Part shown: piece after piece, positions 14,832-25,684 of the stretch
How the letters are laid out: each line of letters opens with the position of its first letter
Numbering within the stretch: the first letter of the stretch is position 1
Virus record (IMG/VR): IMGVR_UViG_2693429605_000013
DNA: 42,167 nt
Direction: 5' to 3' (one strand)
From: a virus
Taxonomy: Duplodnaviria > Heunggongvirae > Uroviricota > Caudoviricetes
Notes under the pieces: model-generated
Told to the model about the DNA's origin: nothing
Databases searched by the model: none
Seen by the model: only the letters and a program-made list of their open reading frames with translations
Translations under genes and position numbers: made by a program

Positions 14832-15821
14832 TTGAGAGCACTACTGCCCCCTGAAATTGCCCCACGTATGGGGATCGTGTTGTTCAGGCCAGGTTCAGAG
14901 CTGATGCCCCTGTTTATGCAGGGGCGTGTCCTGCTGGAGCCTGAGCCGGAACGTTATTCATCTTTCGCCAGTGGTGCCGTTCCGGCGGCATCACAACCGC
15001 TGGCGGATGATCCTGTCGTTCGGGCCGTGTTCCGCAATGAGGCAGTGATCCGTCGTGCTGGTGGCGTGGAATGCCTTGAAAGCTGGTTACTTCGTGAAAA
15101 GGGCTGTCAGTGGCCTCATTCCGACTGGCACAGCGAGAACATGACCACAATGCGACACGCGCCGGGCGCAATCCGTCTGTGCTGGCACTGCGATAACCAG
15201 CTGCGTGATCAGTTCACGGAACGGCTGGAGTCAATGGCAACGGATAACTGTGCCCGCTGGGTGTTGTCTGTCGTGCGTCGGGATCTCGGTTTTGATGACA
15301 GTCACGTTGTGACAATGCCGGAACTGTGCTGGTGGCTGATTCGTAATGATCTGGCGGATGCCTTACCGGAAAGTGCAGCCCGTAAGGCACTGAGATTACC
15401 GAAGCCTGTTGTGCCGTCTGTCACCCGGGAAAGTGACCTTGTGCCTTCGGTTCCTGCCACCAGCATCATCCAGGATAAGGCAAAAAAGGTGCTGGCGCTG
15501 AAAGTGGATCCGGAGTCGCCGGAGTCTTTTATGTTACGCCCAAAACGTCGCCGCTGGGTTAATGAAAAGTACACGCGATGGGTTAAGACGCAGCCGTGCG
15601 CATGTTGTGGAAAACCTGCTGATGATCCCCACCACCTGATAGGTCACGGTCAGGGTGGAATGGCTACAAAAGCGCATGACCTCTTTGTGTTGCCTTTGTG
15701 CAGAAAGCATCACGACGAGCTGCATGCGGATACCGTGGCATTTGAAGAGAAGTATGGCTCCCAGCTGGAGCTGATATTTCGTTTTATCGATCGTGCACTG
15801 GCAATTGGCGTGCTGGCCTGA
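14832..15821 (+). CDS. DUF968-family protein with HNH-like C-terminal motif
   Basis: C-terminal Cys/His cluster (…CACCGKPADDPHHLIGHGQGGMATKAHDLFVLPLCRKHHDELH…); TTG start with GAGG SD. Confidence 0.65.
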   Translation: MRALLPPEIAPRMGIVLFRPGSELMPLFMQGRVLLEPEPERYSSFASGAVPAASQPLADDPVVRAVFRNEAVIRRAGGVECLESWLLREKGCQWPHSDWHSENMTTMRHAPGAIRLCWHCDNQLRDQFTERLESMATDNCARWVLSVVRRDLGFDDSHVVTMPELCWWLIRNDLADALPESAARKALRLPKPVVPSVTRESDLVPSVPATSIIQDKAKKVLALKVDPESPESFMLRPKRRRWVNEKYTRWVKTQPCACCGKPADDPHHLIGHGQGGMATKAHDLFVLPLCRKHHDELHADTVAFEEKYGSQLELIFRFIDRALAIGVLA

Positions 15822-15838
15822 TTTTGTGGAGAAAGTTG

Positions 15839-16180
15839 ATGCGTGATATGTATGAAGTATTGGACCGCTGGGGTGCATGGGCTGCAGCAGATAACAGTGG
15901 TGTGGACTGGCAGCCTGTTGCTGCAGGGTTTAAAGGTTTACTACCTCATGGAAAGAAAACACGCCAACAATGCGATGATGATGAAGGAATCATGATTGAC
16001 AGCTGTGTTGCGCGATTGCGGAAATATAAGCCCGAAGAGTATGAGTTGGTTATTGCTCATTTTGTTATCGGCATCTCACTAAGAACTATTGCAAAGAAGC
16101 AGAAGTGTTCTGATGGGACAATAAGAAAAGAGTTGCAAACAGCTCTTGGTTTTCTGGATGGTGTGCTTTCAATGTTGTAA
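15839..16180 (+). CDS. Q-like late-gene antitermination protein (short form with sigma-70 region-4-like HTH)
   Basis: Position immediately upstream of the late region; C-terminal HTH-like segment (…ELVIAHFVIGISLRTIAKKQKCSDGTIRKELQ…). ATG at 15839 with GGAG SD. Confidence 0.55.
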   Translation: MRDMYEVLDRWGAWAAADNSGVDWQPVAAGFKGLLPHGKKTRQQCDDDEGIMIDSCVARLRKYKPEEYELVIAHFVIGISLRTIAKKQKCSDGTIRKELQTALGFLDGVLSML

Positions 16181-16185
16181 TATTA

Positions 16186-16208
16186 GGGGGAATTACCCCC
16201 CTTTTTTT
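16186..16208 (+). terminator. Rho-independent terminator (GGGGG-AATTA-CCCCC plus T7), possibly bidirectional
   Basis: Perfect GC stem followed by a T-run directly after the Q-like gene; overlaps the stop codon of the convergent membrane-protein gene. Confidence 0.6.
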
Positions 16209-16741
16209 CTCTGTTGCTTTAATAAAATTTTAATATTTTGTCTGATTATGATGAGGCAATGTAATAAAAGAAATACCGTTAGTATTGCAAGCCATACGCA
16301 AAATAAGCATGCATATAAATTAGTTGAAAGTCCAATAGTGAATTGTGCAATTGCTGTTGTGATAGAACATAATATTGATGTATTAATAAATGAGGATAAA
16401 TTGTCTAAAGGTTTATAAAGTACACTATCATTGATTTTGTCAATAGGTATACCAGTGGCAATGCTATAAATTTCCTTATATTCCTGAGTTGCAAAAACCT
16501 TATCGCGTAAATTTATTATGACAAAGGTATGCAGGCTCAATAAAAATGAGCCCACGGAAATAAAACCGGAGAAGAGATAGCCTCGTAAGTTTTTATGATA
16601 AAAATCAAAAAAGTTAACACTTACTTTAGGTGTGTTTCTGTACAATAGGTAAAGTGCAAGCAATGCCAGGATCGAGAATGCAAGCAGTGTAAGGTACTGA
16701 TACCTCAATCTTTTATTTATTAGCCATTCATATAAAGGCAT
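16193..16741 (-). CDS. Polytopic membrane protein (four predicted TM helices); second gene of AT-rich two-gene cassette
   Basis: 182-aa ORF with four hydrophobic stretches and a basic C-terminus (…RQNIKILLKQQRKKGG). ATG start overlaps the upstream gene by 14 nt. Very low GC. Confidence 0.7.
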   Translation of the reverse strand: MPLYEWLINKRLRYQYLTLLAFSILALLALYLLYRNTPKVSVNFFDFYHKNLRGYLFSGFISVGSFLLSLHTFVIINLRDKVFATQEYKEIYSIATGIPIDKINDSVLYKPLDNLSSFINTSILCSITTAIAQFTIGLSTNLYACLFCVWLAILTVFLLLHCLIIIRQNIKILLKQQRKKGG

Positions 16742-17654
16742 TTTTATTCGTCCCGTTCAGCATTTCTTCTTTTATCATATCAAAAACAGGGTTTGTTGTA
16801 TAATTATCGTTTGTCAATCCATTGACTTTATCGGCAATTATATCGAAATCGTATGTTTCAAAAAAAACAGGGCAGTTCATAAAATCAATGGTTTTTTCTA
16901 TTCCTGCATGGTTTACTGCAATAACCTGTGCTTTAGCAACTCCACTCATAGAATTATAAATATTTGAAAGATTCTGAGATAGTTGTTGCACTTTTGTTCT
17001 GTCGCTAGAATTAAAATTCATATCTATTGTGGTGGTGTTAACAAATTGTTCAAGCGCAGTCATTGGTCCACCTTTAAAATCTATATAATTAAATTTAAAG
17101 CTTGTGCTTTTAATCTCTTTGAATTGACATAAAACACTCTGAATGTTGTTTTTATTTGTCATAAGGCTGAAAGTCAGTCTTTCTTTGTATTTTTTATTTA
17201 TTGCAGTTACTTCTTTTTGTTTTGGTTTATCACCAAGTTTTTTTATTTCTTCTTTATTTTGATTTCTGATAAATTCATTACTTATTGTTTCTAAATGAGA
17301 AAAGAGAGTGTTCAGACTGCATGAACCGTGGTGATACATATAGAGACCAGAAAGATTAGATTTTTTAATTAAGAAAAAGTTGAAATTAGCAAGTTTGTCA
17401 CTTCCTTGAAGATCTTCAATTTTAAGCTGGAATTTACCATCAACAAATTGCGACTTACAGTTCTTTTTTTGGTTTCTGAATGTGACAACTAATCCATAAT
17501 AGAAATCATTCACATCCGAAATGAGAATTTTACGAGTATAGTCTGTGCGACTGTGTTCTCTGTTTGATGCGTTGATAAAAGCATTCATTACGTCAACGGT
17601 ATTAATATTTTTGTTATTGTTATTTATTGTAAATCCTATGCTTCTAACTTTCAT
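16728..17654 (-). CDS. Hypothetical soluble protein (308 aa), Asn/Lys-rich; first gene of AT-rich two-gene cassette
   Basis: Long uninterrupted ORF with ATG start; no motif I recognise. About 20-30% GC by eye versus about 50-55% in flanking phage genes. Confidence 0.7.
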   Translation of the reverse strand: MKVRSIGFTINNNNKNINTVDVMNAFINASNREHSRTDYTRKILISDVNDFYYGLVVTFRNQKKNCKSQFVDGKFQLKIEDLQGSDKLANFNFFLIKKSNLSGLYMYHHGSCSLNTLFSHLETISNEFIRNQNKEEIKKLGDKPKQKEVTAINKKYKERLTFSLMTNKNNIQSVLCQFKEIKSTSFKFNYIDFKGGPMTALEQFVNTTTIDMNFNSSDRTKVQQLSQNLSNIYNSMSGVAKAQVIAVNHAGIEKTIDFMNCPVFFETYDFDIIADKVNGLTNDNYTTNPVFDMIKEEMLNGTNKNAFI

Positions 17655-17772
17655 GTGTATTCTAGGACCGACTAAAGATAGCGAGAATGGGGACGCATAG
17701 TTTATAAAAATCCTAACGCGTACGCAAAAAGTATTATATCGTGTTAAGAGTGGTTACTTCGCCACACAACTT

Positions 17773-17798
17773 AAACCCGCCGCTGAGCGGGTTTTTCT
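17773..17798 (+). terminator. Rho-independent terminator-like hairpin (candidate tR'-type)
   Basis: ACCCGC…GCGGGT stem followed by TTTTT. Confidence 0.45.
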
Positions 17799-17979
17799 GT
17801 ACCCGGAATTCTGTGGCTATCCAGAAAGCTCATGGAAAGAGGAGAAAGGCAATAATTTATAACAAAATCTTAAAGATCGCCTTGTATACTATTAGTTTTG
17901 TAAATATTGTGTATTTTGAGTATTGCAGGATAACCCTGTGACGAAGTTAGTGTAACAACACTTTTGCTCTACGAGTTTC

Positions 17980-18009
17980 GCCAGCCTCCCCCAGTGGCTG
18001 GCTTTTTTA
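17980..18009 (+). terminator. Rho-independent terminator
   Basis: GCCAGCC…GGCTGGC 7-bp stem followed by TTTTTT. Confidence 0.55.
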
Positions 18010-18010
18010 T

Positions 18011-18130
18011 GTCCGTAGCGTCAAAGCAGCAATGGCGCTGGGGCGTCGTGCAATTGGCGTTGAGCTGGAGAGCGGGCGTTTTGAGCAGACGGTCAGGGAA
18101 GTTCAGAATGTAGTCAGTCAGAACGGATGA
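18011..18130 (+). pseudogene. 3' remnant of a DNA methyltransferase gene (C-terminal ~35 codons only)
   Basis: Frame reads …VKAAMALGRRAIGVELESGRFEQTVREVQNVVSQNG*, resembling the C-terminus of N4/N6 DNA methylases; no upstream body is present. Confidence 0.4.
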
Positions 18131-18170
18131 TATTGCAGAATTAGTTACGTACCGTTATTATCCTGCGCCC

Positions 18171-18246
18171 GGCCCTTTAGCTCAGTGGTGAGAGCGAGCG
18201 ACTCATAATCGCCAGGTCGCTGGTTCAAATCCAGCAAGGGCCACCA
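18171..18246 (+). tRNA. ileZ: tRNA with CAT anticodon, most similar to tRNA-Ile2 (lysidine type; ileZ-like)
   Basis: Cloverleaf read by hand: acceptor GGCCCTT/AAGGGCC, anticodon loop CTCATAA, T-loop GGTTCAAATCC, 3' CCA. Near-identical to E. coli tRNA-Ile2 as recalled. Confidence 0.85.
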
Positions 18247-18253
18247 TCACATA

Positions 18254-18330
18254 CCGCCATTAGCTCATCGGGATAGAGCGTCAGCCTTCGAAGCTGGCTG
18301 TGCGGGGTTCAAGTCCCCGATGGCGGTCCA
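18254..18330 (+). tRNA. argN: tRNA-Arg (anticodon TCG by manual fold), C1-G72 acceptor end
   Basis: Acceptor CCGCCAT/ATGGCGG, D-arm GCTC…GAGC, anticodon stem TCAGC/GCTGG with loop CTTCGAA, T-loop GGTTCAAGTCC, 3' CCA. Anticodon assignment depends on the hand fold. Confidence 0.75.
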
Positions 18331-18343
18331 TTATCAGCATCAT

Positions 18344-18420
18344 GCGTTGTTAGCTCAGTCGGACAGAGCAATTGCCTTCTAAGCAATCGGTCACTGGTTC
18401 GAATCCAGTACAACGCGCCA
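18344..18420 (+). tRNA. argO: tRNA-Arg (anticodon TCT)
   Basis: Acceptor GCGTTGT/ACAACGC, anticodon loop CTTCTAA, T-loop GGTTCGAATCC, 3' CCA. Confidence 0.85.
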
Positions 18421-18433
18421 TATTTATTTACTT

Positions 18434-18459
18434 GGCTCGCTTTTGCGGGCCTTTTTTTG
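18434..18459 (+). terminator. Rho-independent terminator after the tRNA cluster
   Basis: GGCTCGC-TTTT-GCGGGCC hairpin followed by T7. Confidence 0.6.
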
Positions 18460-18510
18460 TATCTGCGTTACACCATTAACTAATAAATCGAGTGCTTATC
18501 AGGAGGCTAT

Positions 18511-18735
18511 GTGAAAAAACTGATGGTGACGATTGGTCCGTTCGAAACAGAAGTTAGTTTTCGTGTTGTTCAGGGGGAGAGTGTACTTGTTGAAGATGTA
18601 TTTCATGGAAAATCAACAGGTCCTTATGTAAAAGAATATCTTATCGACGCCACGGATGAAAATATTGAGGTGGTGTACGATTCCGTCAATCACCCTGATT
18701 TGATCATTAAGGCAAAATTGAAGCCACTTTATTGA
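18511..18735 (+). CDS. Hypothetical small protein (74 aa)
   Basis: GTG start 4 nt after a perfect AGGAGG SD; first ORF downstream of the tRNA trio. Confidence 0.5.
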   Translation: MKKLMVTIGPFETEVSFRVVQGESVLVEDVFHGKSTGPYVKEYLIDATDENIEVVYDSVNHPDLIIKAKLKPLY

Positions 18736-18787
18736 TCTGACCGGGAGCAATCATAAAATATCTCTGGGTACCCACAAGGAGATAAAT

Positions 18788-18997
18788 ATGTTTGTTTCTG
18801 AAGTGTTAATGGAAGATAAGGACAACAAAGGATGGGTTAAAGGTTGGGCTGTGGTAAGAAGCTCGCCCTGGCATCTTGTTGGGGTTTTTGCGACAGAGGA
18901 AGACGCAGAAACGGAAGCAAGAAAGATGGGAGATAAGTACGAGGTTCACTATGGCTCGCATCGAACAGGAAGTGATGATTTTGTCTGGGGGGAGTAA
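18788..18997 (+). CDS. Hypothetical small acidic protein (69 aa)
   Basis: ATG with AAGGAGA SD; followed by a terminator. Confidence 0.55.
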   Translation: MFVSEVLMEDKDNKGWVKGWAVVRSSPWHLVGVFATEEDAETEARKMGDKYEVHYGSHRTGSDDFVWGE

Positions 18998-19031
18998 CAG
19001 TCGTTTAACCCCAGAATAATCCCGTAACTGA

Positions 19032-19055
19032 GGTCGCTATTGGCGGCCTTTTTTG
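19032..19055 (+). terminator. Rho-independent terminator
   Basis: GGTCGC-TATTG-GCGGCC hairpin followed by TTTTTT. Confidence 0.55.
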
Positions 19056-19186
19056 TATCCGCGCCACGCCCGGCGCATATCAACCACAGAGCCTTTCGGG
19101 GGTGAGCTTACGGAGTGGTCAGTGTGACTTTCTCTGTGGGCAGATCGCTCCCGGGCGTTGGCTCACCCACCCAAAGGAACGTCACG

Positions 19187-19618
19187 ATGTTTGGTATTTT
19201 TGGTAAAAAAGCCCGCCGAGCGGCAGTGGAAATTAAAAAGTTTGAGAAACGTGATCTGGCACAGGCGGTTATTAATGCTGCCTATCTGGTGGCCTATGCA
19301 GATGGTGAATGTGAGGCTTCAGAGAAAGCGAAGATCGAGCAGATCTTGCGTAACCAGCCTGCGTTGTCCGCGTTTACGTCAGAAATTAATGCGATTAGCG
19401 CAACCATTATCGGTCAGCTGGATACCAATTTTAAAATTGGTCGTCGTGCCGCGTTACGCGAGATTGAGGATGTGAAACACGATACGCGTGAAGCGGAAGA
19501 TGTGCTGGATGTGGCGGTGGCCATTGCGGAGGCAGACGGCGAAATTGAGCCGGAAGAGCGCAAGGTGCTGGAAGAGATTGCCGGTGTTCTGGGTCTTCGT
19601 CTGGAGAATCACCTGTGA
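19187..19618 (+). CDS. TerB-like (tellurite-resistance TerB family) protein
   Basis: Two acidic helical segments typical of TerB (…AAYLVAYADGECEASEKAKI… and …VAVAIAEADGEIEPEERKVLEEIAGVLGL…). ATG at 19187 with AAAGGA SD preferred over the track's start at 19115. Confidence 0.6.
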   Translation: MFGIFGKKARRAAVEIKKFEKRDLAQAVINAAYLVAYADGECEASEKAKIEQILRNQPALSAFTSEINAISATIIGQLDTNFKIGRRAALREIEDVKHDTREAEDVLDVAVAIAEADGEIEPEERKVLEEIAGVLGLRLENHL

Positions 19619-19782
19619 CGGTAAAACTGCGCCTGGCTGTGGCTGCACTCCTGCTGTTTCTGGTGGTGATGGTGGATTTCACCACCAGAATCATGTCGGT
19701 GCTGGCGGATGGGGTGCTGGTCTGCGGCATTGTGGTATTGCTGTGGCCGGTGATAAAAAGAAACAGCCTGCATAATGCTTGA
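19615..19782 (+). CDS. Small membrane protein (55 aa, two hydrophobic segments)
   Basis: GTG start overlapping the TerB stop (GTGA). Translation MTVKLRLAVAALLLFLVVMVDFTTRIMSVLADGVLVCGIVVLLWPVIKRNSLHNA. Below the track's size cutoff. Confidence 0.4.
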   Translation: MTVKLRLAVAALLLFLVVMVDFTTRIMSVLADGVLVCGIVVLLWPVIKRNSLHNA

Positions 19783-19961
19783 TTTTTTTATTTGCTGTTT
19801 ATTAAAAACACTTCTGCATGGTGAATCCCCCTGTGCGGAGGGGCGACTGGTGTAGGTAGCATTTATTATGTTATAGGCAAGCCGACGCGGGTTCAGTGAC
19901 ACCGGCTGAATTCACCGGGAGGCACCCGGCACCATGCAAGAAAAAGAATGTGCATGCAAAC

Positions 19962-19991
19962 ATGCCCCTCTCCGGAGGGGCATTTTTTATG
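19962..19991 (+). terminator. Rho-independent terminator (ATGCCCCTC-TCCG-GAGGGGCAT plus T6)
   Basis: Perfect 9-bp stem followed by TTTTTTAT. Immediately followed by a second hairpin (GCCCGAA-TGGGT-TTCGGGC, 19998-20020) preceded by an A-run, which would terminate minus-strand transcripts. Confidence 0.65.
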
Positions 19992-20115
19992 GGTAAAAAA
20001 TGCCCGAATGGGTTCGGGCAATAGCATGAGATACTGATATTGTTGTGTTGTTATCGTGTGGATTTTAACCAGGGTTTATCAGGCTGCGCAACTGCGTGGC
20101 CTTTTTTCATTTCTT

Positions 20116-20160
20116 GGGCTGTAGTCCCCGTGTGTCATTCAGGCTTCCGGACTACAGCCC
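20116..20160 (+). promoter_or_regulatory. 12-bp perfect inverted repeat GGGCTGTAGTCC…GGACTACAGCCC with 21-nt loop, 43 nt upstream of the esterase start
   Basis: Read directly from the sequence; lies in the 5' leader of the 617-aa esterase gene. Confidence 0.4.
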
Positions 20161-20203
20161 ACTCCATATCTGATTTAATACACTATCCCGGCCGGGAGGA
20201 ATA

Positions 20204-22057
20204 ATGACATTTAAACATTATGATGTTGTCAGGGCGGCGTCGCCGTCAGACCTTGCGGAAAAGCTGACACACAAACTGAAAGAGGGCTGGCAGCCGTTTG
20301 GTAGTCCGGTGGCCATAACCCCTTATACCCTGATGCAGGCGATTACAGCAGAAGGTGATGTGGTGGTCAGTGGTGCAACTGAGCCGGATTGGTACTACGT
20401 CATCGTACTGGCCGGGCAGTCCAATGCCATGGCTTACGGTGAAGGGCTTCCGCTGCCGGATTCATACGATGCTCCGGATCCGCGCATTAAACAGCTGGCG
20501 CGCCGCAGTACAGTTACGCCGGGTGGGGCTGCCTGCAGATATAACGATATTATTCCGGCCGACCACTGCCTGCATGATGTGCAGGATATGAGTACGCTGA
20601 ATCATCCGAAGGCAGACCTGAGCAAAGGGCAGTACGGCTGTGTCGGCCAGGGCTTACATATTGCCAAAAAACTGCTCCCGTATATCCCGAATAACGCGGG
20701 GATCCTGCTGGTACCATGCTGTCGTGGTGGTTCTGCATTCACCCAGGGCGCTGAGGGGACATTCAGTGCGGACACGGGGGCCAGCCAGGATTCGGCACGC
20801 TGGGGTGTGGGTAAACCGTTATATCAGGACCTGATTGCGCGCACTAAAGCTGCATTACAGAAGAACCCGAAAAATGTGTTGCTGGCGGTGTGCTGGATGC
20901 AGGGAGAGTTTGACATGAGCGCCGCCACCCACGCACAGCAACCTGCGCTGTTTACAGCCATGCTGACACAGTTTCGTGCTGACCTCTCCGTGTTTAACGC
21001 GCAGTGCCATGGTGGCAGTGCTGCAGATGTGCCGTGGATTTGTGGTGACACGACGTATTACTGGAAAAATACATACGCTACCCAGTACGACACCGTGTAC
21101 GGCGGGTATAAAAACAGGGAGAGTGAGGGCGTTTATTTTGTGCCCTTCATGACAGACGGTAACGGCGTCAATACCGCCACTAACGCGCCGGCAGAAGATC
21201 CGGATATTCCGGCATCAGGATATTACGGTGCGGCATCGAGAACGAATGGAAACCAGGTATCATCAAACCGCCCGACACATTTCAGTTCATGGGCGCGCAG
21301 GAGCATTATTCCGGATCGTCTGGCAACCGCTATTCTGAACGCAGCCGGGCGCACCTCAGCCTTCATCAGTGGTAAGGCACCGGAAATCAAACCCTCGCCC
21401 GGCGGCAACACGCCATCGGGTCCGTTTGCAGATACGTCCGTTCGCACAATCTCCCTGCTGCCGGCAGCCGGAGAGGCTGCTGCGCAGGGCTGGAGCATTA
21501 AGGATGGCGGAATTCAGTTGTCAGATGGTGTATTTAAGATCACCAAGCAGAGCAATAAAACCTGGTCCCTGACGCATCCGGTGGATGACGCAATTACCCT
21601 GCTGACACAGGGCGGCAGACTGACCTGTAAGTTCCGCCTGTCAGGCGCACTGACCAACAATCAGTTCGGGCTGGGGATTTATCTGTATACGGATGCTCCC
21701 GTTCCTGATGGTGTGGCGATGACGGGTACCGGTAATCCGTTCCTGATGTCGTACTTCACTCAGACCACTGACGGCAGAGTGAATCTGATGCATCACAGGA
21801 AAGCCGGAAACACGAAGCTGGGGGAGTTCGGCGATTACGGTAACGACTGGCAGACGCTGGAGCTGGTGTTCACCGCCGGCAGTGCCACGGTTACTCCGAA
21901 ACTGAATGGAGTGGCTGGCCCGGCATTCCAGGTTATAAAAGACAGTCTGACACTGGGACTGAATGCGCTGACGCTGACGGATGTTACAAAAAATGCAGCG
22001 TATGGCGTTGAGATAGAAAGTCTGGTGCTGGAGATAAATGCACCGGCATCATCATAA
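20204..22057 (+). CDS. Prophage-encoded sialate O-acetylesterase, NanS-p type (DUF1737 N-terminal domain + SASA/SGNH esterase domain)
   Basis: [14 protein letters not shown] matches the GQSN catalytic block of SASA-family esterases; N-terminal MTFKHYDVV…EGWQPFGSP resembles DUF1737. Sits between the tRNAs and the holin, as in Stx phages. ATG with GGGAGGA SD. Confidence 0.8.
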
Positions 22058-25019: not shown

Positions 25020-25351
25020 GTTTTGCTGATGCGCCGTATCGTCGCTGTATTCCCTCATTAACAGAGACCGCAGCCCGACAGGGAGACTCCTCTGCGCGAG
25101 TGTGCGGGGAGAATCAAAAACGATACGCACCGGGGTTTACCGCGTTAACGGAGCGCGGCGTTGTCCCCTCATGGTCGCTGGTTCGGTGCGATGGTGGAAG
25201 AAACCGGACGATGTGTTACCTCGCAAGATCTGTTATGTCATGTGTCTGATTTGTGATTTAAGTCGGATAATTGTCGTTGCCATTAAGCAGAGGATTGATG
25301 GCCGACAGGGTGGCATTGTTAGAATAAGACTTATTCTTATCTGTGCCGGGA

Positions 25352-25684
25352 ATGAAAATGAAAAGAAATCTTCCGTTAATTATTTTGTTGTCTTCTCTGG
25401 TTATGGGCTGTACGCAACATAAAACAGATATGCCCCGACAGTTGGTTAAGGCATTACCACAATATCCGGCCTATGCAGCGGCAAATTATATAAAGGGACG
25501 GGTTGATGTGAAGTTTGATATTGGTGCTGATGGTACTGTCACCCGAATTGAGTTTATCCGTTCAGAGCCGCACCATCTGTTTGATGAGCAGGTTGTAAAG
25601 GCGATGGCAAAATGGCGATTTGAGAAGGACAGGCCGCGTAAAGGCGTGAAGAAAACGTTTATCTTTAGTCCTTCTGCACCCTGA
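25352..25684 (+). CDS. Lipoprotein with TonB-C-terminal-like domain
   Basis: Signal peptide with lipobox LVMGC, then a domain resembling the TonB C-terminal fold (…YPAYAAANYIKGRVDVKFDIGADGTVTRIEFIRSEP…). Start ambiguous (ATG 25352 or 25358). Confidence 0.55.
   Translation: MKMKRNLPLIILLSSLVMGCTQHKTDMPRQLVKALPQYPAYAAANYIKGRVDVKFDIGADGTVTRIEFIRSEPHHLFDEQVVKAMAKWRFEKDRPRKGVKKTFIFSPSAP

What the first reader, a model, noticed from the sequence alone, without database searches (positions are those of the whole stretch)
18434..19066. Self-contained two-ORF unit at the position occupied by stxAB in Stx phages
The Q, ileZ-argN-argO-like tRNA trio, NanS-p esterase, S-R-Rz layout matches Stx-converting phages, but no stx genes are present. 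Directly downstream of the tRNAs, bracketed by two terminators, sit two small ORFs (74 and 69 aa), each with a strong SD. This slot classically carries toxin or other cargo expressed from the late promoter; the products are unrecognised by me.
Basis: partly seen in the sequence, partly recalled or inferred. Interest (0 to 1): 0.5.

Follow-up and report, generated by a model that had tools for sequence, protein, structure and literature searches.

The report
Conserved two-gene phage cassette in stx slot
Two small genes sit exactly where Shiga-toxin genes sit in related phages, but they are not toxins: they are a widespread, always-paired accessory cassette of lambda-like phages whose function is unknown and may lie in phage-versus-host defence.

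Summary
ORF1 (18511-18735, 74 aa) and ORF2 (18788-18997, 69 aa) are real genes under purifying selection, each with a Shine-Dalgarno site. They are bracketed by two terminator hairpins that are copies of one about 45-nt repeat.

The left junction matches that of stx2AB in Stx2 phages to the base. Both cargoes start 91 nt after the argO-like tRNA, after "...TATCTGCG".

The cargo is not toxin-like. Both proteins are small, acidic and lack a signal peptide, and no stx is present.

They belong to PHROG families 2571 and 4280, both of unknown function. They form a co-inherited pair: 49 distinct variants, and 77 of 80 viral loci carry both genes. The pair usually lies directly after Rz, before the packaging genes, so it is a mobile late-operon accessory cassette and not cargo specific to the stx slot.

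Predicted folds are a generic beta-sandwich (ORF1) and a small alpha/beta domain with no solved relative (ORF2). The ORF2 domain also occurs as the C-terminal module of TIR, trypsin-like protease and Mrr nuclease proteins, some of them next to restriction or other defence genes.

My best guess, at low confidence, is a late-expressed counter-defence pair. Interest is moderate to low.

The parts
15824..16180 (+). Q antiterminator (context: drives the late transcript that must read through to the cassette)
   Evidence: PF06530 Phage_antitermQ, E = 2.5e-45
17700..17795 (+). Inferred late promoter region pR' and first terminator tR' (hairpin 17773-17792 within the folded stretch)
   Evidence: Aligns to the region directly after Q in Stx2a phage EH1846. 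The hairpin folds at -12.6 kcal/mol. Promoter function is inferred, not shown.
18171..18420 (+). tRNA trio (CAT, ileZ-like; Arg-TCG; Arg-TCT)
   Evidence: ARAGORN. Near-identical to the trio upstream of stx2A.
18430..18474 (+). Left copy of the about 45-nt repeat. It holds the intrinsic terminator hairpin 18434-18451 plus U7 and the junction motif GTATCTGCG.
18511..18735 (+). ORF1: 74 aa, GTG start, SD AGGAGG at 18501-18506. Small acidic all-beta protein of the phrog_2571 family.
18788..18997 (+). ORF2: 69 aa, ATG start, SD AGGAG at 18777-18781. Small acidic alpha/beta protein of the phrog_4280 family, with motif GW(G/A)V.R..PWHL.G...YGSHR.GSDDF.
19027..19070 (+). Right copy of the repeat. It holds terminator hairpin 19030-19050 plus a U-tract and GTATCCGCG, after which the sequence rejoins the 'empty-site' sequence seen in phage JLK-2012.
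19187..19782 (+). Downstream neighbours TerB (tciA-like, 19187-19618) and DUF3927 (tciB-like, 19615-19782). These are context, not part of the cassette.

Best explanation
SHOWN. ORF1 and ORF2 form a conserved, co-inherited two-gene accessory cassette of lambdoid phages. In this prophage lineage it lies between two copies of the terminator that follows the tRNA array. That is the same junction at which stx2AB is joined in Stx2 phages. In most other phages the same pair lies directly after Rz.

INFERRED (expression). The cassette has no convincing promoter of its own. It is co-oriented with the late operon and lies behind at least three terminators downstream of pR'. It is therefore probably made only when Q-modified RNA polymerase reads through, late in lytic growth.

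INFERRED (function, low confidence). The products are two small, acidic, soluble cytoplasmic proteins that work together in phage-host or phage-phage conflict, most likely as a counter-defence.
- ORF2 is a free-standing copy of a domain that bacteria use as the C-terminal module of single-protein effectors of the abortive-infection type (trypsin-like protease, TIR, Mrr nuclease).
- As a free domain it could compete with, or mimic, that module. It might titrate whatever the module binds, or dock onto the effector.
- ORF1, a beta-sandwich confined to phages of Enterobacterales, would be its lineage-specific partner or adaptor.

Confidence is about 0.9 for the 'conserved late-operon accessory pair, not a toxin' part. 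It is about 0.3 for the counter-defence mechanism. The number given below is for the mechanism.
For: Pairing:
- 77 of 80 IMG/VR loci retrieved with ORF2 carry an ORF1 homologue immediately upstream on the same strand. Two of the three exceptions are cut by a contig end.
- 8 of 10 Enterobacterales genome loci have the pair.
- There are 49 distinct pair variants with a 43-79 nt gap. The two genes' distance matrices correlate: Mantel r = 0.72, with 0 of 2000 permutations as high.

Mobility within the late operon:
- The pair occurs after Rz, after the tRNAs, or after TerB-TciB.
- An empty site exists in JLK-2012.
- The junction is identical to that of stx2A.

Late expression:
- Some ORF1 homologues overlap or abut the Rz stop.
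- Terminator hairpins lie upstream.
- Promoter-like sites are no more frequent than in shuffled sequence (12 against 10.3), and none lies before ORF1.

Protein properties:
- pI is about 4.9-5.0 and no hydrophobic segment is present.
- Both AlphaFold2 models are confident, with pLDDT about 89.

Link to conflict systems:
- The ORF2 domain is C-terminal to Trypsin_2 in at least 7 proteins, to TIR_2 in 2 and to Mrr_cat in 1, and follows Imm53 in 1.
- A trypsin fusion lies immediately after a type I hsdR-M-S locus.
- A TIR fusion lies beside Mrr/NA-iREase and AAA_13 genes.
- The Mrr fusion lies near a ThsB-TIR gene.
- Another trypsin fusion lies beside an integrase.

Precedent: small late-operon proteins neutralise a defence in phi80 (AtiEcA, 76 aa, between Rz and cos; PMC11364771) and in JBD26 (anti-Tab; PMC10884400).
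Against: - No experiment or expression data were found for either gene.
- Neither protein resembles any known anti-defence or defence protein by sequence (Pfam, NCBIfam, PADLOC).
- AtiEcA is not homologous to either protein.
- The domain-fusion argument is indirect and rests on four neighbourhoods.
- The same fusions would equally fit a sensor, adaptor or immunity-like role.
- In Pseudomonas-type phages ORF2 homologues stand alone, on the strand opposite the tail genes. That is the typical layout of a lysogen-expressed defence moron, not of a late counter-defence.
- ORF1 homologues occur without ORF2 in Stx phages, so the two proteins are not strictly interdependent.
Confidence: 0.3

Rival explanations
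1. Prophage-encoded defence or superinfection-exclusion moron. The pair, or ORF2 alone, would be expressed in the lysogen and protect it against other phages, in the way of Tab, Tai or HK97 gp15.
For: - ORF2 homologues in Pseudomonas-type phages are stand-alone genes on the strand opposite the tail genes, a classic position for a lysogen-expressed moron.
- The domain occurs in proteins located next to restriction or other defence genes.
- The cassette's GC content (40-43%) is below that of its flanks (50-54%).
Against: - In Enterobacterales the pair is always co-oriented with the late operon and often abuts Rz.
- In the window it lies directly behind a strong terminator, with no promoter-like site before ORF1.
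- There is no PADLOC hit.
Confidence: 0.2
2. Phage housekeeping accessory of the lysis or packaging stage, for example a modulator of spanin function, lysis timing or cos cleavage, given its usual place between Rz and the HNH/terminase genes.
For: The predominant position is directly after Rz and before HNH-TerS or Nu1. Translational abutment to Rz occurs in some phages.
Against: - The pair is absent from many close relatives, such as Sakai Sp5 (which has bor there) and JLK-2012.
- In the window it is displaced about 6 kb upstream of Rz, while its own post-Rz slot holds a TonB_C ORF.
- It is combined with several different terminase and lysis types.
- Neither protein has a membrane or periplasmic signal.
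Confidence: 0.15
3. Virulence or toxin cargo analogous to StxAB: a secreted or released two-subunit toxin made on prophage induction.
For: The junction and the late-operon placement are the same as for stx2AB. It is a two-gene unit of small proteins.
Against: - Neither protein has a signal peptide, whereas Stx2A and Stx2B start with hydrophobic leaders.
- The pair is common in phages of non-pathogens and insect-associated bacteria, and usually sits after Rz.
Confidence: 0.03
4. Type II toxin-antitoxin or addiction module.
For: Two adjacent small genes, co-inherited.
Against: - Each gene occurs alone in many genomes: ORF1 in Stx phages, and ORF2 outside Enterobacterales.
- The genes are separated by a 43-79 nt gap and do not overlap, and no promoter of their own was found.
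- There is no DNA-binding antitoxin fold and no TA-family hit.
Confidence: 0.04

Closest known systems
stx2AB cargo of Stx2-converting lambdoid phages (e.g. Sakai Sp5, Stx2_EH1846)
   Same: The insertion junction is identical (argO-like tRNA, terminator...TATCTGCG, cargo start 91 nt after the tRNA). Both are two-gene units co-oriented with the late operon, so expression is expected to depend on Q read-through.
   Different: There is no sequence or fold similarity and no signal peptide. The pair is not restricted to this slot or to pathogens, and here it has a right-hand terminator repeat.
Lambdoid 'morons' (lambda bor/lom, HK97 gp15; tciA/tciB = TerB/DUF3927 next door)
   Same: A presence/absence polymorphism between otherwise syntenic phages. 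The unit is flanked by a terminator, has lower GC than its neighbours, and occupies the two classical late-region cargo slots (after tR'/tRNAs and after Rz).
   Different: No promoter of its own was detected. The unit is transcribed in the sense of the late operon and in some phages is coupled to Rz.
AtiEcA of phage phi80 and anti-Tab of Pseudomonas phage JBD26 (late-operon counter-defence proteins; PMC11364771, PMC10884400)
   Same: Small proteins (76 aa and similar) encoded in the late operon. AtiEcA lies in the same Rz-to-cos slot. They are made only in the lytic cycle and act by binding a defence protein.
   Different: There is no homology (hhalign probability below 1%). No cognate minus-strand defence gene is adjacent to the pair in the window. 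The function of the pair is untested.
Effector-plus-C-terminal-module proteins of defence islands (e.g. TIR-, protease- or nuclease-SAVED/STING fusions; PrrC-like effectors embedded in type I R-M loci). This comparison is from general knowledge.
   Same: The ORF2 domain follows Trypsin_2, TIR_2 or Mrr_cat domains in single proteins. One such protein lies directly after hsdS.
   Different: The ORF2 domain is only about 55-65 residues and has no detectable relation to SAVED, STING, CARF or any solved fold. Ligand or partner binding has not been shown.
Pfam DUF7336
   Same: Weak similarity over about 24 residues: E = 0.005 for the query, and best E = 3.7e-4 in 2 of 150 family members. It too is a phage domain of unknown function.
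   Different: The score is below the gathering threshold (17.1 against 25 bits). This is not a membership.

Membership tests
Shiga toxin / AB5 toxin operon | A subunit with a ribosome-inactivating N-glycosidase domain | tested here: not met
   No Pfam or NCBIfam hit for either ORF. tblastn of Stx2A against the window gives a best E of 2.
Shiga toxin / AB5 toxin operon | Sec signal peptides on both subunits and an OB-fold pentameric B subunit | tested here: not met
Shiga toxin / AB5 toxin operon | Location between the tRNAs (ileZ-argN-argO) and nanS-p/lysis genes in the Q-dependent late transcript | tested here: met
   The junction is identical to that of stx2A in EH1846 and Sakai Sp5.
Phage moron (Hendrix/Juhala sense) | Present in some phages and absent from otherwise syntenic relatives | tested here: met
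   JLK-2012 has the empty site. Only 93 of 5426 E. coli genomes hold at least 80% of the unit, while 750 match part of the queried stretch (query bases 611-690 in the four phage hits).
Phage moron (Hendrix/Juhala sense) | Own promoter and own terminator | tested here: inconclusive
   A terminator is present. No promoter-like site lies upstream of ORF1; only one 9/12 match lies at 18732-18759, at the chance level. This was a consensus scan only.
Phage moron (Hendrix/Juhala sense) | Nucleotide composition different from the neighbours | tested here: met
   GC is 0.40-0.43 across the cassette against 0.50-0.54 in the flanks. The difference is modest.
PHROG phrog_2571 (ORF1) and phrog_4280 (ORF2) | Significant match to the family HMM | tested here: met
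   E = 1.9e-26 for ORF1, matching positions 100-171 of a 291-column profile. E = 6.1e-41 for ORF2, full length. Both families are of unknown function.
Type II toxin-antitoxin | Obligate co-occurrence of both genes, a DNA-binding antitoxin, and an autoregulated promoter | tested here: not met
   Each gene occurs alone elsewhere. The folds are a beta-sandwich and a small alpha/beta domain. No TA family is hit.
Known anti-phage defence systems (PADLOC-DB 2.0) | Match to a system protein model | tested here: not met
   No significant hit; the best is E = 0.014, for Cas7c over 26 residues.
Late-operon counter-defence proteins (AtiEcA / anti-Tab type) | Homology to AtiEcA | tested here: not met
   hhalign probability is 0.3% and 0.1%.
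Late-operon counter-defence proteins (AtiEcA / anti-Tab type) | Neutralises a defence protein by binding, and is needed for phage growth when that defence is present | not testable with these tools
   This needs genetics and biochemistry.
Pfam DUF7336 | Score above the gathering threshold (25 bits) | tested here: not met
   17.1 bits, E = 0.005.

The most novel reading that the evidence does not exclude
ORF2 would define an undescribed domain family, absent from Pfam and with no solved relative. The family is shared between phage accessory proteins and the C-termini of bacterial single-protein effectors of the abortive-infection type (trypsin-like protease, TIR, Mrr, possibly HEPN). On this reading, the phage pair ORF1-ORF2 is a new late-expressed anti-defence system. 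The free domain would act as a decoy or sponge for the signal or partner that those effectors sense.
Probability: 0.2. Interest if true: 0.7.

Novelty: new member of a known kind. Interest (0 to 1): 0.35.

Why it matters
- The junction that carries stx in Stx phages is shown here to be a general exchange point. A repeated terminator plus the GTATCYGCG motif bounds the cargo, and other late-operon cargo is swapped in at the same point. This bears on how stx modules move between lambdoid phages.
- The cargo itself is a very common but unstudied gene pair of enterobacterial prophages, including those of O26 and O145 EHEC.
- If the link to TIR, protease and nuclease effector proteins reflects function, the pair would be an entry point to a new defence/counter-defence domain family.
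- If it does not, the pair is simply another conserved hypothetical moron.

Tried and rejected
Searches that found nothing informative:
- Megablast against the phage collection found only the right-hand flank.
- The first word-indexed protein search for ORF1 found only near-identical hits.
- Pfam, NCBIfam and PADLOC scans of both proteins gave nothing significant.
- Foldseek against BFVD gave nothing at E <= 0.001.
- PDB sequence-profile searches found nothing.
- Literature searches for accessions, locus tags and DUF7336 found nothing.

Calls that could not run:
- The afdb50 library was not available.

Ideas tested and dropped:
- The 68-aa ORF after the Mrr fusion is not a second copy of the ORF2 domain.
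- No ORF1 homologue lies near ORF2 relatives or fusion proteins outside Enterobacterales.
- Longer 'fusion' forms of ORF1 are frameshift or read-through artefacts, or a NanS-ORF1 recombinant. They are not informative architectures.
- AtiEcA of phi80 is not a homologue.
- Toxin, TA-module and non-coding readings were rejected for the reasons given under the rival explanations.

Full report
**1. What is in the sequence**

The window is a lambdoid prophage. The stretch 18421-19110 is 100% identical to prophages of E. coli O26:H11 11368, O145:H28 and others. Ninety-three of 5426 complete E. coli genomes hold at least 80% of it, while 750 match some part of the queried stretch. In the four phage hits that shared part was the right-hand flank.

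RefSeq annotates the same CDSs as hypothetical proteins. Both have good Shine-Dalgarno sites: AGGAGG 4 nt before the GTG, and AGGAG 6 nt before the ATG.

The three tRNAs (CAT, TCG, TCT) lie at 18171-18420. The two bracketing hairpins, 18434-18451 and 19030-19050, are stable and each is followed by a U-tract. They fold at -13.8 and -12.7 kcal/mol, with z = -5.5 and -3.4.

The hairpins are more than a pair of terminators. They are two copies of one imperfect direct repeat of about 45 nt, at 18430-18474 and 19027-19070.

The surrounding layout is:
- Q (PF06530), the tRNA trio, then the pair;
- TerB, DUF3927 and a NanS-p-like esterase (matched by BLAST to the SASA-family esterase of the O26 prophage);
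- holin, DUF1327, lysozyme, Ant and Rz.

No stx gene is present.

**2. The junction**

I aligned the window with Stx2a phage EH1846. The two are near-identical from the 3' end of the DNA methylase gene (reduced to a remnant in the window) through the three tRNAs and the terminator, up to "...TTTTTT(G/A)TATCTGCG". They diverge at that point. ORF1 and stx2A each start 91 nt after the last tRNA. Sakai Sp5 has the same spacing.

Phage JLK-2012 shows the empty site. It has a tRNA array, a single terminator, then "GTATCTGCGCCACGCCCGGCGCAT..." and tciA. The window rejoins that sequence after its second terminator copy.

The cassette therefore sits between duplicated terminator/GTATCYGCG motifs, at exactly the point where stx2AB is joined in Stx2 phages. 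All near-identical copies of the cassette show both motif copies wherever the contig reaches.

**3. Are these real genes?**

Yes.
- ORF1 matches phrog_2571 (E = 2e-26) and ORF2 matches phrog_4280 (E = 6e-41). Both families are of unknown function.
- A profile search for ORF1 found 103 protein clusters in Enterobacteriaceae.
- An exhaustive HMMER search for ORF2 found 289 clusters at 50% identity, 128 of them at E <= 1e-10.
- Against diverged homologues, synonymous sites are saturated while non-synonymous change is much lower.

**4. The two genes are a unit, but the stx slot is not their home**

In phage mEp237 the two homologues (genes 060 and 061) lie in the same order directly after the lysis genes.

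The pairing is consistent across collections:
- Of 80 IMG/VR loci retrieved with ORF2, 77 have an ORF1 homologue immediately upstream. Two of the three exceptions are cut by a contig end.
- In species-level genomes the pair is present in 8 of 10 Enterobacterales loci (Xenorhabdus, Yersinia, Pseudocitrobacter, Scandinavium). It is present in 0 of 16 loci outside that order.
- I found 49 distinct pair variants. ORF1 differs by up to 79% and ORF2 by up to 48%. The gap between the genes is 43-79 nt, and the two distance matrices correlate: Mantel r = 0.72, with 0 of 2000 permutations as high.

The position varies. It is most often directly after Rz and before HNH/TerS or Nu1. The tRNA-pair-TerB arrangement occurs only in the set near-identical to the window. 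Other arrangements, such as tRNA-TerB-TciB-pair-TerS, also occur.

ORF1 homologues also occur alone, directly after Rz, in Stx1a, Stx2a and Stx2c phages and in H-19B. There they sometimes overlap the Rz stop. The window itself has no second copy. Its post-Rz slot holds a TonB_C-domain ORF.

The pair is therefore a mobile accessory cassette of the late operon. It uses both classical cargo slots of lambdoid phages.

**5. What the proteins look like**

Both proteins are small and acidic (pI about 4.9-5.0) and have no hydrophobic segment. They are therefore cytoplasmic and lack signal peptides, unlike Stx2A and Stx2B.

AlphaFold2 gives confident models for both:
- ORF1 is a six-stranded all-beta protein (pLDDT 88.7).
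- ORF2 is a beta-beta-alpha-beta core with extra N- and C-terminal strands (pLDDT 88.8).

The fold searches did not identify either protein:
- BFVD (searched for ORF2 only) and PDB sequence profiles add nothing.
- Pfam has no family for either protein. ORF2 has a sub-threshold match to DUF7336.

**6. The one functional lead**

About 30% of the 149 best ORF2-family representatives are longer than 90 aa. In most of the long ones (100 aa or more) the domain is C-terminal. Their N-terminal parts are:
- trypsin-like serine protease (at least 7 proteins, plus one in Bordetella petrii);
- TIR (2 proteins);
- Mrr-type nuclease (1 protein);
- Imm53 (1 protein);
- integrase-like (2 proteins; one of these also carries the trypsin motif);
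- two proteins with an Rx4H motif suggestive of HEPN, judged by eye and not confirmed by Pfam.

I could read four neighbourhoods:
- A trypsin fusion follows hsdR-M-S directly.
- A TIR fusion lies beside Mrr/NA-iREase and AAA_13 genes.
- The Mrr fusion lies near a ThsB-TIR gene.
- A trypsin fusion lies beside an integrase.

This is the architecture of single-protein effectors of the abortive-infection type that carry a C-terminal sensing or docking module. It places the ORF2 domain in biological-conflict systems. It does not say what the free phage protein does.

**7. Expression logic (inferred)**

The region after the AT-rich insert aligns with the post-Q region of the Stx2a phage. This places pR' near 17700-17745 and tR' near 17771-17795. 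Between there and ORF1 lie two further terminators.

No promoter-like site precedes ORF1. Promoter-like sites in the region are at the chance level, 12 against 10.3 in shuffles.

The cassette is therefore most simply expressed only by Q-modified polymerase, late in lytic growth, as stx2 mostly is.

The literature gives direct precedents for small late-operon proteins that act as counter-defences:
- AtiEcA of phi80 is 76 aa and lies between Rz and cos. It neutralises the phage's own Tai protein (PMC11364771).
- Anti-Tab of JBD26 acts in the same way (PMC10884400).

AtiEcA is not homologous to ORF1 or ORF2, so this is an analogy only.

**8. Verdict**

The implied reading, toxin-like cargo peculiar to the stx slot, is not supported.

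The best-supported description is a conserved, co-inherited, late-operon accessory gene pair of lambdoid phages. Confidence in that description is about 0.9.

Its function is unknown. I commit to a late-expressed counter-defence role in which ORF2 is a free copy of an effector-associated domain, at about 0.3. The rivals are:
- a lysogen-expressed defence moron (0.2). This is favoured by the opposite-strand, tail-region position of ORF2 homologues in Pseudomonas-type phages;
- a lysis or packaging accessory (0.15);
- a toxin-antitoxin module (0.04);
- a toxin (0.03).

Both families are already catalogued as unknown-function PHROGs and as RefSeq hypothetical proteins. The finding is therefore a new, uncharacterised member of a known kind of element. 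Interest is moderate to low unless the conflict-system link proves functional.

Noticed in passing
window 16193-17654 (minus strand): An AT-rich (27-34% GC) two-gene insert lies between the Q stop codon and the inferred pR'. It encodes a 308-aa protein (phrog_2802, function unknown) and a 182-aa hydrophobic, apparently membrane-spanning protein (judged from its sequence). Neither has a Pfam, NCBIfam or PADLOC hit. Identical copies occur in phages mEp460_4F5 and vB_EcoS-569R4. In IMG/VR loci the insert occurs at the same place (L013) and before a holin (L111). It looks like a lysogen-expressed moron and is a possible defence candidate.
   Followed up: partly
window 18017-18130: This is the 3' remnant of a DNA methyltransferase gene that is intact (1059 nt) at the same place in Stx2a phage EH1846. 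The rest has been deleted in this lineage.
   Followed up: partly
window 25343-25684: An ORF with a TonB C-terminal domain (PF03544, E = 6e-15) lies just after Rz, in the slot where the ORF1/ORF2 pair usually sits in other phages.
   Followed up: no
window 15500-20300: Terminator-like hairpins are strongly over-represented: 18 found against 4.5 expected. On the late-transcript path they include 17771-17795, 17980-18002, 18434-18451, 19030-19050, 19962-19983 and 20081-20102. Every cargo block between pR' and the lysis genes is thus fenced by terminators.
   Followed up: partly
Loci L137-L164, e.g. L002 6001-6821: In Stx-type phages the lone ORF1 homologue after Rz is regularly followed by a short minus-strand gene (in some phages of the YlcI/YnfO family), then HNH DNase and TerS. 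This layout resembles the 'non-contiguous operon' of the Tai/Ati and Tab/anti-Tab defence/counter-defence pairs.
   Followed up: no
Protein P0026: This is a chimeric protein made of the N-terminal DUF1737 part of NanS-p fused in frame to an ORF1 homologue. It is evidence of recombination between late-region modules.
   Followed up: no
L188 4947-5165 and 5924-8365: In a Caulobacteraceae MAG, a stand-alone ORF2 homologue lies about 760 nt upstream of an 814-aa protein with TIR (ThsB-like) and WD40-like beta-propeller matches (the beta-propeller hits are far below Pfam's cut-offs).
   Followed up: partly
L004 4701-5297 (phage YDC107_1): Here the ORF1 domain is the C-terminal half of a 198-aa protein whose N-terminal part looks helical. 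This explains why ORF1 matches only positions 100-171 of the 291-column phrog_2571 profile.
   Followed up: no
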